IMG/VR virus record: IMGVR_UViG_2778260991_000010
Coordinates: 1-8,430 of that record
Reading direction: 5' to 3' (one strand)
Source: a virus
Lineage: Duplodnaviria; Heunggongvirae; Uroviricota; Caudoviricetes
DNA: 8,430 bases
The notes under the pieces were generated by a model. That model saw nothing but the letters and a program-made list of their open reading frames with translations, searched no databases and was not told the DNA's origin. Position numbers and translations under genes: made by a program. Below, one piece after another: positions 2,197 to 7,009 of this stretch; within the stretch, counting starts at the first letter, position 1, and every line of letters starts with the position of its first letter.

Positions 2197-2248
2197 TTGA
2201 GTTTTCTCATTAAAAACACTTGACCAGCTTTCATGAGAAAACTAAATT
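2197..2248 (+). promoter_or_regulatory. Putative dicB-operon promoter (TTGACC-N17-TAAATT) flanked and overlapped by two operator copies
   Basis: -35 TTGACC at 2220-2225, 17-bp spacer, -10 TAAATT at 2243-2248. Operator copy TTGAGTTTTCTCA at 2197-2209, and an inverted degenerate copy TGAGAAAACTA at 2234-2244 overlapping the spacer and -10. Consistent with repressor control of the dicB operon. Confidence 0.45.
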
Positions 2249-2481: not shown

Positions 2482-2610
2482 ATGGATTTCGACACAATCA
2501 TGGAAAAGGCTTACTAAGAATACTTCGAAGGCCTTGCCGAAGGCGAAGAAGCTCTCAGCTTCAGCGAATTTAAACAGGCGCTTTCCAGTTCGGCAAAATC
2601 TAACGACTGA
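2482..2610 (+). pseudogene. ydfB: ydfB-like ORF (42 codons) interrupted by an in-frame TAA at codon 12 (2515-2517)
   Basis: ATG at 2482, two nt after the ydfA stop. Reads MDFDTIMEKAY, then TAA, then the same frame continues EYFEGLAEGEEALSFSEFKQALSSSAKSND to TGA at 2608-2610. Total length and spacing to neighbours fit the 42-codon ydfB position. Confidence 0.45.
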
Positions 2611-2639: not shown

Positions 2640-2858
2640 ATGCAGAAACGAGAACCCGTCATCATCGCGCCAGACTATACCGATGATGAACTTTATGAGT
2701 GGATGCGCCAGAAAATTAATGCAGCGCAGGATCTGAAATGGGTCAATGAAGCCAGGGCTAAGCAGGCTGAAAATCTGTCCGCTCTGGAGCAGGATATCAC
2801 CAATCTGGAAAAAGCAGCGGCATTAAGCATTGCCAGAATGATTACATACCCGCGTTAA
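2640..2858 (+). CDS. ydfC: YdfC-like small protein (72 aa)
   Basis: 72-aa ORF with AGGA 7 nt upstream of the ATG. Size and position (third ORF of the operon, 30 nt after ydfB) match ydfC. Confidence 0.6.
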   Translation: MQKREPVIIAPDYTDDELYEWMRQKINAAQDLKWVNEARAKQAENLSALEQDITNLEKAAALSIARMITYPR

Positions 2859-2880
2859 TAGCTAACCAACTAGGCTAATA

Positions 2881-3288
2881 ATGGAATTTAAAGATTTACC
2901 AAAAGAAATCCAGACAATTGCTGCAACGACTCTCGGTGATAGTCTGGTGAAAATTGACCCGGCATACACCAAAAAAGAAACCATCGATAATATGGTTCGT
3001 AATGTGCGCAATGCTTTTTCTGGGCTATATAGTTCTGATAATCAAAAGCAGGAAAGCGATGTTAATGAACGGGTAATTTCTGTTTGCGTGAATGGCCACG
3101 CTCTTTCATCAATCAAAACAGAAACAGCGACAGTCTTCGATTGCCTTTGCATTGTACAGAGCCTTGTTGATACCCTGTTTCGTTCAGTGAATTTAGAAAA
3201 TGATGCAAATCTGCGAGGGCGCACAATAGCACATCCATATGCACATACTTTAGGCTCTGTGGATATCAAAGATCCCACAAATCTTTAA
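2881..3288 (+). CDS. Hypothetical protein (135 aa) in the AT-rich insert, co-oriented with the dicB operon
   Basis: ATG-to-TAA ORF of 135 codons in DNA of about 38-40% GC, where stop codons are frequent and long ORFs are unlikely by chance. Protein-like composition. Only a weak ribosome-binding site (AGG). Starts 22 nt after the ydfC stop. No family recognised. Confidence 0.5.
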   Translation: MEFKDLPKEIQTIAATTLGDSLVKIDPAYTKKETIDNMVRNVRNAFSGLYSSDNQKQESDVNERVISVCVNGHALSSIKTETATVFDCLCIVQSLVDTLFRSVNLENDANLRGRTIAHPYAHTLGSVDIKDPTNL

Positions 3289-3499
3289 TGAAATAGTTAA
3301 TGCGAATTGTACTTGCTCTTTCAGTTTCTTTCAGAATACGCGTTGAAACTGCTGGCGGTAATTTGGTATTCCATTTATTAAAATCATGCCCGGGAAAGTA
3401 CTCTTCGAAAATACTTTTAACTGCAGACTCGCCTATTGAAATGCTGCTTACCATGCGATTTTGATAAAGGCATTTAGCAATAAGAGTTGATTTTAACAT
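3266..3499 (-). CDS. Hypothetical protein (77 aa) in the AT-rich insert, antisense to the dicB operon
   Basis: ATG at 3497-3499 (minus) preceded by AGGAGG with a 4-nt spacer (reverse complement of 3501-3510). 77 codons, stop at 3266-3268. The 3' end overlaps the 3' end of the 135-aa ORF by 23 bp. No family recognised. Confidence 0.5.
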   Translation of the reverse strand: MLKSTLIAKCLYQNRMVSSISIGESAVKSIFEEYFPGHDFNKWNTKLPPAVSTRILKETERASTIRINYFIKDLWDL

Positions 3500-3503
3500 T
3501 CAC

Positions 3504-3829
3504 CCTCCTGAGGGTTGGTAATTAAGGAGTTATCCACGGGTGAGGTGGAGTGCGTGCGCCGGACACGGGTGAACATCCGGCACTGACAGTTTACTGAAAG
3601 GATATATCCCTGAAAAGTCAGGGCATAACACGAAAGTGCACGGCGAAGTCCTTCTCCCTTAGAGCCGTCGTTAAATTTAATTCGACCGTGCGCTTCCGGT
3701 TGTGGCAATCCGCGAAATGGCGCGGCGGTAAGTATGGCGGGGTTATTCTTTCCCCGTTGAGGACACCGGGTTGTCAGGTTGACCATACGCTTAAGTGACA
3801 ACCCCGCTGCAACGCCCTCTGTTATCAAT
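3504..3829 (+). other. GC-rich, hairpin-dense untranslated spacer upstream of DicF
   Basis: About 55-58% GC with no credible ORF. Stem-loops: GCCGGA/TCCGGC (3558-3581), CCCTGA-AAAG-TCAGGG (3608-3623), CCGCG/CGCGG (around 3700-3716), CGGGG/CCCCG (around 3738-3756), and a 9-bp stem GGGTTGTCA/TGACAACCC (3768-3776 / 3796-3804). Direct repeat CACGGGTGA at 3536-3544 and 3564-3572. Confidence 0.4.
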
Positions 3830-3882
3830 ATTCTGGTGACATTTGGCGGTATCAGTTTTACTCCGTGACTGCTCTGCCGCCC
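3830..3882 (+). ncRNA. dicF: DicF small regulatory RNA (about 53 nt)
   Basis: Sequence AUUCUGGUGACAUUUGGCGGUAUCAGUUUUACUCCGUGACUGCUCUGCCGCCC closely matches the DicF sequence as I recall it (two possible differences near the 5' end). It sits 186 nt upstream of the dicB start and ends in a stem plus T-run. Confidence 0.7.
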
Positions 3883-4256: not shown

Positions 4257-4444
4257 AAACAACATTTGCACTCGTTCTGACAGTTTATCTTGTTTCCGGC
4301 GAATCTCTTGAGATGGTGACTGGCTTATACGGTTCAATGAAAGAATGCATGGCTGCAGCAGCAGAACAAAAAATTCCCGGTAACTGTTATCCGGTAGATA
4401 AAGCTACTCACACTAATAATAACGAAATACCGGCGGGACTTTAA
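4253..4444 (+). CDS. ydfD: YdfD-like small protein (63 aa) with hydrophobic N-terminal segment
   Basis: 63-aa ORF translationally coupled to dicB. N-terminus TTFALVLTVYLV is hydrophobic. Size and position match ydfD. Confidence 0.6.
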   Translation: MKTTFALVLTVYLVSGESLEMVTGLYGSMKECMAAAAEQKIPGNCYPVDKATHTNNNEIPAGL

Positions 4445-4537
4445 AACAGCACCGAAATAAACATCCGGTTTCATTTTTATATGCCAGCAATGGCAGGGAT
4501 TTGTTCACCCTTAAATCTGTAATGAGGTTAAAACAAA

Positions 4538-7009
4538 ATGAATAAAGTCTTTATTTGTGCAGCTATTCCAGACGAACGGGCAATAAAGGAAGAAGGTGCA
4601 GTCGCTGTGGCCACTGCCATTGAAGCCGGTGACGAGCGCCGCGCCCGAGCCAAATTTACCTGGCAATTCCTGGAGCAATATCCGGCTGCTCAGGACTGCG
4701 CTTATAAATTTCTTGTCTGTGAGGATAAACCCGGCATGCCCCGCCCTGCCATTGACTCCTGGGATACCGAATATATGCAGGAAAACCGCTGGGATGAGGA
4801 ATGCGCTTCCTTTGCTCCGGTCGAACCAGAATCCGATCCGATGAACGTCAATTTTGACAAGCTGTCCCCTGAAGTACAGAACGCGGTCCTGGTTAAGTTC
4901 GGTACATGTGAAAACATCACCGTTGATATGGTGATTAGCGCGCAGGAATTGTTGCAGGAAGACATAGCAACATTCGACGGACATATCGTTGAAGCGTTGA
5001 TGAAAATGCCAGAAGTTAACGCCATGTATCCGGAGCTTAAGCTGCATACCATCGGGTGGGTTAAGCATAAATGTAAGCCTGGTGCCAAATGGCCCGAAAT
5101 TCAGGCAGAGATGCGCATCTGGAAAAAACGTCGCGAAGGTGAACGCAAGGAAACCGGGAAATACACGTCTGTTGTTGATCTCGCCCGCGCCAGAGCCAAT
5201 CAACAGAACACTGAAAATTCAACAGGAAAAATCAACCCGGTCATTGCTGCCACTCATCGCGAATACAAGCAGACATGGAAAACACTGGATGACGAACTGG
5301 CCTACGCTCTCTGGCCTGGTGACATTGATGCCGGAAACATTGACGGCAGCATCCATCGCTGGGCAAAAAATGAAGTTATCGACAACGACCGCGAAGACTG
5401 GAAGCGTATCTCGGCATCAATGCGCAAACAGCCTGATGCCCTTCGCTACGACTGCCAGACTATTTTTGGCCTTGTCCGTGAACGTCCGATCGACATTCAC
5501 AAAGACCCTGTAGCACTGAACAAATACATTACTGAATACCTGACTACAAAGGGCGTGTTTGAAGATGAAGGAAGAAATCAGAGCGCAACTGATACTCTCT
5601 CGTCGCCAGTACCAGAAACTGATGCAGTGGAAACGGCAATTCCGGACAACGAAAAAACCGAATGCAAAGTGGAAGTCGAACCATCTGTAGAGCGTGAGGG
5701 GCCGTTCTACTTCCTCTTCACCGACAAGGATGGCGAAAAATACGGTCGCGCAAACAAACTTTCTGGTCTGAATAAGGCGCTGACTGCAGGGGCTACTGAA
5801 ATCACGAAAGAAGAATATTTTGCCCGCAAAAACGGTACATACTCAGGTTCACAACAAAATACTGGTGCATCTGACACGACCGCACAACCAGAGCCGGTAA
5901 AAGTTACCGCTGACGAAGTAAACAAAATTATGCAGGCAGCCAATATCAGCCAGCCTGACGCCGATAAGTTGCTTGCTGCCTCTCGCGGAGAATTTGTTGC
6001 AGGGATTAGCGACCCGAATGATCCGAAATGGGTGAAGGGGATTGAAACCCGCGACTCTGTAAACCAGAACCAGCAAGAATCGGAACAGAACGACCAGAAA
6101 ACGGAACAAAACAGCCCAAATGCGTTACAAAACGAGCCAGAAACGAAACAGGTTGAACCAGTAGCGCAACAGGAGCCGGAAAAAGCCTGCACCGCCTGCG
6201 GTCAGACCGGCGGCAGTAGCTGCCCTGATTGTGGTGCGGTGATGGGTGACGCAACATACCAGGAAATATTCGATGAAGAGCATCAGCCTGAAGTTCAGGA
6301 AAATGATCCGGAGGAAATGGAAGGCACTGCGCATCAGCACAAGGAGAACACTGGCGGCAATCAGCATCATGCCAGCGATAGTGAAACTGGCGAGGCATCA
6401 GATCCCTTAATTAAGGCGAACGGTCATCATAATCTCACATCCACCAGCAGAGCGGAGATTCATCTGATGATCGACCTTGAAACCATGGGAAAAAATCCCG
6501 ATGCCCCGATTATCTCAATAGGCGCAATATTTTTCGATCCACAAACCGGAGATATGGGACCGGAATTTAGCAAGACCATCGATCTGGATACTGCTGGCGG
6601 AGTCATTGATCGTGACGTCATTAAATGGTGGCTTAAGCAATCACGCGAAGCGCAATCTGCCATTATGACCGATGAAATCCCGTTAGATGATGCACTGTTA
6701 CAATTGCGGGAATTTATCGACGAAAACTCCGGTGAATTTTTTGTTCAGGTCTGGGGAAATGGAGCCAACTTCGACAACACGATTTTGCGCCGTTCATACG
6801 AACGGCAGGGGATCCCCTGCCCGTGGCGTTACTACAACGATCGCGATGTACGCACAATCGTTGAGCTGGGGAAAGCCATAGACTTCGATGCCAGAACGGC
6901 TATTCCATTCGAAGGTGAGCGCCATAATGCACTTGATGACGCCCGTTACCAGGCAAAATACGTTTCAGCAATCTGGCAAAAACTGATCCCGAATCAGGCT
7001 GATTTTTAA
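4538..7009 (+). CDS. Large prophage exonuclease (823 aa): N-terminal exodeoxyribonuclease VIII-like region, acidic Q/E/N-rich linker with a CxxC-x7-CxxC zinc ribbon, C-terminal DEDDh 3'-5' exonuclease domain
   Basis: ATG at 4538 preceded by GAGGT. C-terminal motifs IDLETMG, WGNGANFDNTIL and HNALDDARYQAKY are typical of DnaQ-like DEDDh exonucleases. Zinc ribbon CTACGQTGGSSCPDC is encoded at 6188-6232. Sits where recE/ydfE-like genes lie in Rac/Qin-type prophages. Internal minus-strand ORFs (4511..5203 and others) are antisense shadows. Confidence 0.7.
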   Translation: MNKVFICAAIPDERAIKEEGAVAVATAIEAGDERRARAKFTWQFLEQYPAAQDCAYKFLVCEDKPGMPRPAIDSWDTEYMQENRWDEECASFAPVEPESDPMNVNFDKLSPEVQNAVLVKFGTCENITVDMVISAQELLQEDIATFDGHIVEALMKMPEVNAMYPELKLHTIGWVKHKCKPGAKWPEIQAEMRIWKKRREGERKETGKYTSVVDLARARANQQNTENSTGKINPVIAATHREYKQTWKTLDDELAYALWPGDIDAGNIDGSIHRWAKNEVIDNDREDWKRISASMRKQPDALRYDCQTIFGLVRERPIDIHKDPVALNKYITEYLTTKGVFEDEGRNQSATDTLSSPVPETDAVETAIPDNEKTECKVEVEPSVEREGPFYFLFTDKDGEKYGRANKLSGLNKALTAGATEITKEEYFARKNGTYSGSQQNTGASDTTAQPEPVKVTADEVNKIMQAANISQPDADKLLAASRGEFVAGISDPNDPKWVKGIETRDSVNQNQQESEQNDQKTEQNSPNALQNEPETKQVEPVAQQEPEKACTACGQTGGSSCPDCGAVMGDATYQEIFDEEHQPEVQENDPEEMEGTAHQHKENTGGNQHHASDSETGEASDPLIKANGHHNLTSTSRAEIHLMIDLETMGKNPDAPIISIGAIFFDPQTGDMGPEFSKTIDLDTAGGVIDRDVIKWWLKQSREAQSAIMTDEIPLDDALLQLREFIDENSGEFFVQVWGNGANFDNTILRRSYERQGIPCPWRYYNDRDVRTIVELGKAIDFDARTAIPFEGERHNALDDARYQAKYVSAIWQKLIPNQADF

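What the first reader, a model, noticed from the sequence alone, without database searches (positions are those of the whole stretch)
2881..3288. 135-aa orphan ORF riding on the dicB operon transcript
A long clean ORF in AT-rich DNA is unlikely by chance, and it starts 22 nt after ydfC, so it would be co-transcribed when the repressor is relieved, that is, early after induction. That timing is typical of host-takeover or anti-defence genes. It has only a weak ribosome-binding site and no motif I recognise, though there are scattered Cys/His residues (VCVNGH, DCLCIV). Its 3' end is covered by the antisense 77-aa ORF, coupling the two.
Basis: partly seen in the sequence, partly recalled or inferred. 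Interest (0 to 1): 0.6.

Follow-up and report, generated by a model that had tools for sequence, protein, structure and literature searches.

The report
Conserved convergent prophage early gene pair
The 135-codon reading frame is a real, conserved prophage gene, not an orphan. It is one half of a two-gene module whose tail-to-tail overlapping partner on the other strand accompanies it across many enterobacterial prophages, so the two products probably act on each other, though what they do is untested.

Summary
The ORF exists as described: 2881-3288, 135 aa, 22 nt after ydfC, with a 23-nt 3' overlap with the antisense 77-aa ORF at 3266-3499. It is not an orphan. It matches phrog_1363, is annotated "hypothetical protein", and occurs in 646 of 5,426 complete E. 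coli genomes, including O157:H7.

Together with ORF77 it forms a 635-bp, low-GC cassette that K-12 Qin lacks.

ORF135 has two domains: an N-terminal helical hairpin and a C-terminal "A domain". Stand-alone A-domain genes of 77-80 aa occur in Serratia, Dickeya, Klebsiella, Proteus and other prophages. In the two loci examined they are the first gene after OL/PL. They almost always converge on an ORF77 homologue ("B") with overlapping 3' ends: 80 of 84 B-anchored and 75 of 80 A-anchored loci.

Both families are under purifying selection. Neither matches any known family or fold.

Other Qin-like prophages carry different sense-domain/antisense-gene pairs at the same site, and at least two of these are also cognate pairs.

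Best reading (about 0.4): B is a lysogen-phase product and the A domain is its early-expressed antagonist.

Function is untested.

The parts
2879..3513 (.). Two-gene cassette inserted between ydfC and the dicF leader. It is absent from K-12 Qin and from phage Tritos.
   Evidence: Alignment with K-12 and Tritos: homology stops after GCTAA (about 2878) and resumes at GGTTGGTAATTAAGG (about 3514). GC is 38.9% against 47.2% for the window. At least 80% of it is present in 646 of 5,426 complete E. coli genomes.
2881..3288 (+). ORF135, the finding: an early-operon gene encoding a two-domain protein.
   Evidence: WP_096836091.1, hypothetical protein; phrog_1363 at E 6.4e-46 over its full length; dN/dS 0.43 within E. 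coli.
2881..3045 (+). N-terminal module (aa 1-55, MEFKDLP...AFSGLY), a predicted helical hairpin. In other Qin-like prophages it is fused to other C-terminal domains.
   Evidence: AF2 helices 8-23 and 32-50, with residues 52-60 at pLDDT below 50. The same module occurs in phrog_9419, 2151, 6937 and 33007 and in P0042-P0052. Its recombination history differs from that of the A domain.
3067..3285 (+). A domain (aa 63-135): the conserved partner domain of the ORF77 family. Family motif: VNG..(x)..T.TAVAADY...LE.EAN.SG(K/R)T..H...G.
   Evidence: 35-40% identity to the stand-alone Serratia and Dickeya partner proteins aligned; 24-45% across the wider set. 71 representatives in the 50%-cluster library. 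dN/dS is 0.28 across genera and 0.30 between E. coli alleles.
3266..3288 (.). 23-nt 3' overlap of the two coding regions.
   Evidence: The same 23-nt overlap occurs in 79 of 84 B-anchored loci; more distant subfamilies overlap by 26, 33, 51 or 53 nt.
3266..3499 (-). ORF77 (B): a 77-aa all-helical protein, the partner of the A domain.
   Evidence: phrog_10348 at E 2.6e-46. Homologues of the same length at 52-71% identity in Klebsiella, Dickeya, Xenorhabdus, Salmonella, Morganella, Yersinia and Serratia. AF2 pLDDT 96.4. dN/dS 0.14 across genera.
3504..3509 (-). Shine-Dalgarno AGGAGG for ORF77, 4 nt before its ATG, at the right edge of the cassette.
   Evidence: The alternative 63-aa antisense gene (L010) has the same AGGAGGGTGA at this edge; the 69- and 80-aa genes (L101, L102) begin at the corresponding boundary behind a different strong SD, GGAGGATAAA.
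3588..3616 (-). Only candidate promoter for ORF77 in this window (TTTTCA-17-TAAACT, 8 of 12 matches). It is weak and unverified.
   Evidence: It lies in the conserved dicF leader, which K-12 also has. The extended -10 promoter conserved upstream of B in other genera is degenerate here.
2640..2858 (+). ydfC, the upstream operon gene. YdfC-like segments are sometimes fused to the A domain.
   Evidence: fusions P0034 and P0149.
2220..2248 (+). Promoter-like site between dicA and ydfA, where dicBp is expected.
   Evidence: TTGACC-17-TAAATT. K-12 dicBp lies upstream of ydfA (PMC10448788).
3831..3882 (+). DicF sRNA. It lies downstream on the same transcript, so the operon RNA must read antisense through ORF77.
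   Evidence: Rfam RF00039, 77 bits, E 3.8e-16.

Best explanation
ORF135 is the early, repressor-controlled half of a two-protein module. Its partner ORF77 (B) is made from its own antisense transcription unit while the prophage is repressed. B acts as an inhibitor of lytic development, in the manner of an exclusion or immunity factor.

When the DicA-type repressor is relieved, the dicBp (PL-like) transcript does two things. First, it is translated into ORF135, whose C-terminal A domain binds and neutralises B. Second, because it must run on to dicF and dicB, it reads antisense through the whole of ORF77. That shuts B down by transcriptional collision and by forming an RNA duplex.

The N-terminal module of ORF135 is a separate, exchangeable part.

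Shown: gene reality, domain structure, operon position, strict convergent pairing, purifying selection, and cognate pairing of the alternative cassettes.

Inferred: when each gene is expressed, the physical A-B interaction, which partner antagonises which, and what B does.
For: 1. Pairing. In 80 of 84 loci found through B, an A-domain ORF converges on B, with a 23-nt overlap in 79 and 26 nt in one. In 75 of 80 loci found through A, B is present with a 3' overlap of 23-53 nt. The two sets share some contigs. This holds although flanking genes and repressor types differ.
2. Opposite control. In L007 and L137 the order is: cI terminator, then operator repeats shared with OR plus a promoter-like site, then A. 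In K-12 the dicBF operon is one transcript from dicBp (PMC10448788). Upstream of B in 28 non-E. coli loci, TGnTA...T (an extended -10) is invariant; its end lies about 30 nt before the ATG in most of them. L137 has a terminator-like hairpin just after the B stop codon.
3. Asymmetry. A occurs without an intact B: the 201-aa variant, the B frameshifts in L013-15 and L100, and L106 and L176. No intact B was seen with A missing or disrupted. The one B-like locus with no A-model hit, L019, has a possibly A-like convergent ORF.
4. Both proteins are under purifying selection: 0.28 and 0.14 across genera, and an A-domain ratio of 0.30 between E. coli alleles.
5. The same site holds other cognate pairs. 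The 63-aa antisense gene always faces a "..EVM.SELE..NIKPT.." C-domain. The 69-aa gene abuts a phrog_2151 C-domain in 65 of 66 loci. The 201-aa protein stacks the A domain and the second partner domain with only the second small gene present. That is harmless if these domains are antidotes.
6. The cassette has a lower GC than its flanks, as expected for an acquired module.
Against: - No expression, interaction or phenotype data exist.
- In this E. coli cassette the conserved B promoter is degenerate, and only a weak 8-of-12 promoter-like site remains. B may therefore be poorly expressed here.
- Within E. coli, B is too uniform to show selection.
- Physical overlap itself hinders separation of the two genes, so some of the co-occurrence is automatic.
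- The AF2 model of ORF135 is only moderate (pLDDT 75, pTM 0.35).
- A complex prediction could not be run.
Confidence: 0.4

Rival explanations
1. Reverse direction. The A domain is the active early effector, a host-directed takeover or toxic protein like Kil or DicB. B is a constitutively made buffer or immunity protein that protects the lysogen from leaky expression of A, or from A made by superinfecting relatives. On induction, A outruns B.
For: The pairing and opposite-control evidence is the same. The architecture recalls polymorphic effector-immunity loci: a constant N-terminal module, a variable C-terminal domain and a cognate small neighbouring gene. The neighbouring operon genes dicB and dicF are themselves toxic early functions (PMC5069750, PMC10448788).
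Against: A persists intact and under purifying selection where B is frameshifted or replaced. The 201-aa protein would then carry two effector domains with only one immunity gene. If B were merely useless without A, some loci with intact B and disrupted A should be seen; none was.
Confidence: 0.2
2. No functional coupling. ORF135 is an independent early accessory gene (host takeover or anti-defence). ORF77 is an unrelated moron. They travel together only because their coding regions overlap.
For: The overlap makes separation by recombination costly. Both are small accessory genes in a mosaic region. No direct evidence of interaction exists.
Against: The pairing survives divergence to about 25-45% (A) and 52-71% (B) identity, changes of overlap length (23 to 53 nt), and relocation from first PL gene to fourth operon gene. 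At least two other antisense small genes at the same hotspot also have their own cognate sense domains.
Confidence: 0.15
3. The module acts mainly at the nucleic-acid level. Convergent transcription and 3' RNA duplexes tune leakiness and timing of the early-left (dicBF) operon. Alternatively, one of the proteins is a small DNA- or RNA-binding regulator of that operon, in the manner of small prophage induction modules.
For: The 3' overlap is always present. A conserved roughly 75-nt element with two interlocking dyads lies upstream of B, and its dyad is kept even in K-12. RNase III processing is already part of dicBF biology. The predicted beta-hairpin plus two helices in A could be a nucleic-acid-binding shape. 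Small-protein induction modules exist in other phages (PMC10432266).
Against: Both proteins are under clear purifying selection, so the RNAs alone are not the function. No HTH or other DNA-binding family or fold was detected. Nearly identical A and B sit beside different repressor types, which argues against repressor-specific action. The known TF-smORF modules are divergent and contain an HTH factor.
Confidence: 0.15
4. In this particular prophage the pair is an inactive remnant: inherited intact but no longer expressed or used.
For: ydfB is a pseudogene here. The ancestral B promoter is degenerate in all E. coli cassettes. ORF135 has a weak RBS. B frameshift alleles circulate.
Against: ORF135 is intact in 68 of 68 E. 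coli-type loci examined, and its frame has the lowest dN/dS. Between E. coli alleles the A domain has dS 0.505 and dN 0.150. The cassette is in a plaque-forming phage record, Evi. The window keeps integrase, xis, exonuclease and replication genes.
Confidence: 0.1

Closest known systems
Prophage exclusion functions that need a self-antidote: P22 SieB/Esc, BstA with its aba element, lambda RexAB (from my own knowledge, not tested here)
   Same: They are encoded next to the immunity region and expressed from the repressed prophage. The phage carries its own means of escaping them on induction. The A-B position directly after cI/OL-PL and the opposite control of the two genes fit this logic.
   Different: There is no sequence or fold similarity. 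The antidote here would be a separate early protein encoded convergently with overlapping 3' ends. No exclusion phenotype is known.
Type I toxin-antitoxin loci with convergent, 3'-overlapping transcripts, such as prophage txpA/RatA and bsrG/SR4 of B. subtilis (own knowledge)
   Same: Both are convergent units whose 3' ends overlap, so the two RNAs can pair. Both lie in a prophage.
   Different: Both partners here are conserved proteins under purifying selection. B is a soluble 77-aa helical protein, not a short hydrophobic peptide. The antisense partner is an mRNA of an operon.
Polymorphic effector-immunity loci (CDI, Rhs and colicin-type logic; own knowledge)
   Same: A constant N-terminal module is fused to alternative C-terminal domains, and at least three of these have their own cognate small neighbouring gene. 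Cassettes are exchanged at fixed boundaries.
   Different: There is no secretion or delivery domain and no recognisable toxin domain. The small gene is on the opposite strand. The locus sits in an early phage operon. The evidence leans towards the sense domain being the antidote rather than the effector.
TF-smORF prophage induction modules (Silpe et al. 2023, PMC10432266)
   Same: Both are small-protein modules of unknown sequence family in variable prophage loci (between repA and telN, or near par genes, in the linear plasmid-like phages studied), and each is specific to its own partner.
   Different: Those modules are divergent pairs with an HTH transcription factor and an antirepressor specific for one cI. 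Here the pair is convergent, no HTH was found, and the same A and B sit beside different repressors.
dicBF operon accessory genes ydfA, ydfB and ydfC of Qin (PMC5069750, PMC10448788)
   Same: Same operon, same strand, small proteins of unknown function. YdfC-like segments occur fused to the A domain.
   Different: ORF135 and ORF77 are absent from K-12 Qin, so none of the K-12 work covers them.

Membership tests
PHROG phrog_1363 (phage protein family, function unknown) | Full-length match to the family profile | tested here: met
   E 6.4e-46, residues 1-130 on profile positions 1-138 of 139.
PHROG phrog_10348 (for the partner ORF77) | Full-length match to the family profile | tested here: met
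   E 2.6e-46, 77 of 77 positions.
A-B convergent module (defined here) | A-domain motif VNG..T.TAVAADY..LE.EAN.SG(K/R)T..H..G at the C-terminus of the sense protein | tested here: met
   ORF135 residues 63-135 align over the whole domain. The window deviates at several nearly invariant positions: ATVFDC, DANLRG.
A-B convergent module (defined here) | A B-family gene on the opposite strand with overlapping 3' ends | tested here: met
   23-nt overlap in the window, the same as in 79 of 84 B-anchored loci.
A-B convergent module (defined here) | Physical or functional interaction of the two products | not testable with these tools
Type II toxin-antitoxin system | Two adjacent co-directional, co-transcribed genes | tested here: not met
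   The genes are convergent.
Type II toxin-antitoxin system | Homology to a known toxin or antitoxin family | tested here: not met
   No Pfam, NCBIfam or PADLOC hit for either protein.
Type I toxin-antitoxin system | Convergent or overlapping antisense transcription | tested here: met
   The 3' overlap is conserved. The transcripts themselves were not observed.
Type I toxin-antitoxin system | A small hydrophobic toxin peptide and a non-coding RNA antitoxin | tested here: not met
   B is a 77-aa soluble five-helix protein. A is coding, with dN/dS 0.28.
Known anti-phage defence systems (PADLOC-DB 2.0) | Match to any component model | tested here: not met
   No families at E up to 0.1 for ORF135, ORF77 or YdfC.
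   C69, H73, C88 and C90 are replaced in homologues (VNGA, AADYL). None is among the invariant or nearly invariant columns. Some relatives carry a separate ClpX-type zinc finger in front of the A domain.
Moron (autonomous transcription unit inside a prophage operon), for ORF77 | Own promoter and terminator; composition different from the flanks | tested here: inconclusive
   GC is 38.9% against 47.2%. An extended -10 is invariant in 28 non-E. coli loci, and L137 has a terminator-like site. In the window only a weak 8-of-12 promoter-like site and no terminator were found.
TF-smORF induction module (PMC10432266) | A divergent HTH transcription factor plus a small antirepressor specific for the phage's own cI | tested here: not met
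   The orientation is convergent and no HTH was found. The same A and B lie next to different repressor types.
Polymorphic effector-immunity locus | Constant N-terminal region, variable C-terminal domain, cognate adjacent small gene | tested here: met
   Cognate pairing was tested for the 77-, 63- and 69-aa genes, not for the 80-aa gene.
Polymorphic effector-immunity locus | Delivery or secretion domain and a toxic C-terminal domain | tested here: not met
   No such domain in Pfam. Toxicity was not testable.

The most novel reading that the evidence does not exclude
The early-left operons of lambdoid prophages carry a polymorphic class of cognate, convergent gene pairs. Each pair has a small protein made by the resident prophage that blocks lytic growth of related phages. 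Each also has an early-expressed antidote domain that lets the phage escape its own copy, and, when several antidote domains are stacked as in the 201-aa protein, overcome the blocks of other lysogens. ORF135/ORF77 would be the most widespread pair, present in about 12% of complete E. coli genomes including O157:H7.
Probability: 0.3. Interest if true: 0.8.

Novelty: new variant of a known kind. Interest (0 to 1): 0.6.

Why it matters
The ORF is ordinary in one sense: databases already list it as a hypothetical protein. What I could not find described in the libraries or papers searched is that it belongs to a strictly paired, tail-to-tail overlapping two-gene module. In the two examined phage types, that module occupies the very first position after the early-left promoter, and it sits inside the toxic dicBF operon of a large share of pathogenic E. 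coli.

If the two products antagonise each other, this would be a compact new way for prophages to hold a function in the lysogen and cancel it at induction. It would also identify a hotspot where such pairs are exchanged.

The question is directly testable with two small genes and an inducible phage (Evi).

Tried and rejected
- **My first idea, rejected.** I thought the 135-aa form was a C-terminally truncated 201-aa protein. The C-terminal tail IKDPTNL is homologous to the tails of the stand-alone partners in Serratia and Dickeya, so the 201-aa form is the derived one.
- **Antirepressor role for ORF77.** Considered and set aside, because the same B lies next to different repressors.
- **LexA box upstream of ORF77.** None seen by eye.
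- **Lipoprotein signal in B (IAKC).** Rejected: the lipobox does not fit and the N-terminus is too short.
- **Rfam on related loci.** Nothing found at the module.
- **Model phages.** tblastn of B against 50,697 phage records found only the E. coli PPompW and Evi phages, so no well-studied phage carries it.
- **Literature searches.** No paper found on these genes.

Full report
**1. The observation.** The window is the immunity and early-left region of a Qin-like lambdoid prophage. In order it contains:
- a YdaT-like gene and a Cro/DicC-like gene on the - strand;
- a DicA-like HTH repressor at 1728-2135;
- ydfA, ydfB (internal stop) and ydfC (2640-2858);
- DicF (3831-3882, Rfam 77 bits), dicB, a DUF1482/ydfD-like gene, an 823-aa exonuclease, xis and int.

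The reported ORF is there: ATG at 2881 to TAA ending at 3288, 135 aa, 22 nt after the ydfC stop. Only AGG at -9 to -7 serves as a ribosome-binding site. The antisense 77-aa ORF at 3266-3499 overlaps it by 23 nt and has AGGAGG 4 nt before its ATG.

An ORF this long arose in 8 of 2,000 shuffles of the local 1 kb. More to the point, the frame is intact in 68 related E. coli-type loci. Its dN/dS of 0.43 is the lowest of the six frames, the others being 0.50-0.96.

**2. Not an orphan, and not part of K-12 Qin.** ORF135 matches phrog_1363 over its whole length (E 6e-46), and ORF77 matches phrog_10348 (E 3e-46). Both families have unknown function. RefSeq annotates both as hypothetical proteins, WP_096836091.1 and WP_096836093.1. 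The exact ORF135 sequence is on 313 contigs and the exact ORF77 sequence on 853, always named "hypothetical".

Alignment with K-12 Qin and with phage Tritos shows that 2879-3513 is a 635-bp insertion between ydfC and the conserved dicF leader. The insertion contains exactly the two ORFs. Its GC content is 38.9% against 47.2% for the window.

At least 80% of the cassette is present in 646 of 5,426 complete E. coli genomes, including O157:H7, O55:H7 and O111:H8. It is also in phage Evi and the PPompW prophages.

**3. Anatomy of ORF135.** Homologues show two independent parts.
- Residues 1-55 (MEFKDLP...AFSGLY) recur at the start of proteins with unrelated C-terminal halves and in several PHROGs.
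- Residues 63-135, which I call the A domain, are homologous to stand-alone proteins of 77-80 aa in Serratia, Dickeya, Klebsiella, Citrobacter, Hafnia, Raoultella and others. Identity to ORF135 is 24-45%.
- The family motif is VNG..T.TAVAADY..LE.EAN.SG(K/R)T..H..G.

A full HMMER scan of 1.84 billion cluster representatives found only 71 relatives. Some carry other N-terminal additions: a ClpX-type zinc finger, a YdfC-like segment, or an FKVP.EA motif.

AlphaFold2 gives a helical hairpin (8-23, 32-50), a disordered linker (52-60), and a beta-hairpin followed by two helices for the A domain. The mean pLDDT is 75.

The two halves have different recombination histories. Window versus L013: dS 0.06 in the N module and 0.50 in the A domain. 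Window versus L016: the reverse.

**4. The partner.** ORF77 (B) has same-length homologues at 52-71% identity across Enterobacterales. It has a very confident five-helix model (pLDDT 96.4).

The key result is that A and B occur together, convergent, with overlapping 3' ends.
- Of 84 loci retrieved through B, 80 carry an A-domain ORF converging on it. The overlap is 23 nt in 79 and 26 nt in one.
- The other four are a contig end, two disrupted B genes, and a distant Psychrosphaera homologue whose convergent neighbour looks weakly A-like.
- Of 80 loci retrieved through a distant A subfamily, 75 carry B with an overlap of 23, 26, 33, 51 or 53 nt. The two sets share some contigs.

The flanking genes and repressor types vary, so the pair moves as a unit.

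Across genera, dN/dS is 0.28 for A and 0.14 for B, with synonymous sites near saturation.

The pairing is asymmetric. A is found without an intact B: B is frameshifted in L013-15 and L100, replaced in the 201-aa variant, and absent in L106 and L176. I saw no intact B whose partner was missing or broken.

**5. Position and control.** In two different immunity types (L007 from Serratia, and L137) the order is the same:
- the cI gene;
- an intrinsic-terminator-like hairpin;
- two operator-like repeats that also occur between cI and cro, overlapping a promoter-like site;
- the A gene.

A is therefore the first gene of the early-left operon there. In four further diverse loci the A-B pair lies downstream of the repressor gene on the same strand, directly or after one short ORF.

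In the window, A is the fourth gene of the dicBp operon. For K-12, published work shows one polycistronic ydfABC-dicF(-dicB-ydfD) transcript from dicBp, repressed by DicA, with no evidence for an internal promoter (PMC10448788; PMC5069750). Because dicF and dicB lie beyond ORF77, that transcript must read antisense through all of ORF77.

Upstream of B, 28 non-E. coli loci share a roughly 75-nt element. In it, TGnTA...T is invariant, which is what an extended -10 promoter requires. It ends about 30 nt before the ATG in most of these loci. L137 also has a terminator-like hairpin just after the B stop codon.

In the E. coli cassette this -10 is degenerate (GTGGAGAACT, or GTGGATAACT in the window). 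The only candidate left is a weak TTTTCA-17-TAAACT at 3616-3588 on the - strand. It lies inside the dicF leader, which K-12 also has. How well ORF77 is transcribed in this window is therefore open.

**6. A hotspot of cognate pairs.** Other Qin-like prophages carry different combinations at the same site, between the same boundaries:

| Sense protein | Antisense gene | 3' relation | Locus |
|---|---|---|---|
| 201 aa (N module + A domain + a further domain) | 63 aa | 23-nt overlap | L010 |
| 208-216 aa (N module + phrog_2151 domain) | 69 aa | abutting | L101 |
| 179 aa | 80 aa | 20-nt overlap | L102 |
| 133 aa | apparently frameshifted antisense gene (read by eye) | - | L103 |

None of these parts has a known function.

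At least two of these other pairs are also cognate.
- In all 38 loci the 63-aa gene faces a "..EVM.SELE..NIKPT.." domain, carried either by the 201-aa protein or by an unrelated 126-aa protein.
- The 69-aa gene abuts the phrog_2151 domain in 65 of 66 loci.

**7. Mechanism.** These facts fit an antagonistic pair under opposite control. B is made from its own unit in the repressed prophage. A is made first on derepression, while the same transcript silences B in antisense.

I favour "A neutralises B; B blocks lytic development" (confidence about 0.4) for three reasons:
- A can exist alone but B apparently cannot.
- The A domain stays under purifying selection where B is lost (dN/dS 0.30).
- The 201-aa protein stacks two partner domains with only one small gene. 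That is harmless, and even useful, for antidotes but awkward for effectors.

The reverse direction (about 0.2), no coupling (about 0.15), a mainly nucleic-acid-level or regulatory role (about 0.15) and an inactive remnant in this prophage (about 0.1) remain open. Everything about expression timing, binding and phenotype is inference.

**8. Comparison with known systems.**
- The module works like prophage exclusion functions that need a self-antidote (SieB/Esc, BstA/aba, RexAB). In layout it resembles 3'-overlapping type I toxin-antitoxin loci and polymorphic effector-immunity loci. I make these comparisons from my own knowledge.
- It fails the defining features of type I and type II toxin-antitoxin systems, of the PADLOC defence families, and of TF-smORF modules.
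- No solved or predicted structure resembles either protein.
- I found no paper on these genes, and no well-studied phage carries them.

**9. Verdict.** The conserved convergent A-B module and the hotspot of cognate pairs appear undescribed in what I could search, and they are readily testable. Interest 0.6.

Noticed in passing
window 2482-2610: ydfB carries an internal stop: TAC TAA GAA where, from my recollection of the K-12 YdfB sequence, K-12 has TAC GAA GAA. It is therefore a pseudogene in this otherwise intact-looking operon. RefSeq flags the same in a 99.8% identical genome.
   Followed up: partly
L005-L008, L085-L099, L146-L181: about 75 nt upstream of the ORF77 homologues (for example L007 4925-5000): A strongly conserved non-coding element, GCCTG..TTCACCAC.TCAGGC..GGTGGTATCTT. 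It has two interlocking dyads (GCCTG/CAGGC and CCAC/GTGG) and an invariant TGnTA...T. One compensatory variant (GCCGGG/CCCGGC) occurs in Serratia. It could be a promoter with an operator, or an RNA pseudoknot on either strand. The CTCCAC...GTGGAG dyad persists in the E. coli dicF leader, even in K-12.
   Followed up: partly
L010-L012 4001-4775; L101 2013-2849; L102 3001-3763; L103 3001-3690: The site between ydfC and the dicF leader is an exchange hotspot. At least five alternative sense/antisense cassettes lie within the same conserved flanks, and at least two of the alternatives are cognate pairs in their own right.
   Followed up: yes
L011 2694-3172; L103 1681-2152; L101 821-1488: Related Qin-like prophages carry toxin-antitoxin pairs (PaaA2/ParE, HigB/HTH) inserted between the repressor gene and ydfA or ydfC. 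This is a second variable site in the same operon leader.
   Followed up: no
L102 4343-5197, with RNAs at 4394-4582: One relative has a Phage_ASH/pRha antirepressor-like gene overlapped by isrK and C4 antisense RNA matches (Rfam 66 and 80 bits). It is inserted between the cassette and dicB.
   Followed up: no
window 4538-7009: An 823-aa early protein whose last 180 residues are an Rv2179c-like 3'-5' exoribonuclease domain (E 7e-66). The long acidic, low-complexity N-terminal part corresponds to the YdfE_N and YdfE_C families in relatives. In K-12 this gene is the ydfE pseudogene cut by IS2.
   Followed up: no
L006 4548-4781: In one Serratia-type locus a second 77-aa gene lies directly upstream of the ORF77 homologue in the same orientation. 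It did not match the B-family model, so it may be a very divergent duplicate or a different small gene.
   Followed up: no
window 3514-3830: The roughly 320-nt GC-rich (52.7%) leader before DicF is highly conserved with K-12, and the cassette's right edge falls exactly at its start. Published RNase III processing of the DicF precursor takes place in this leader.
   Followed up: no
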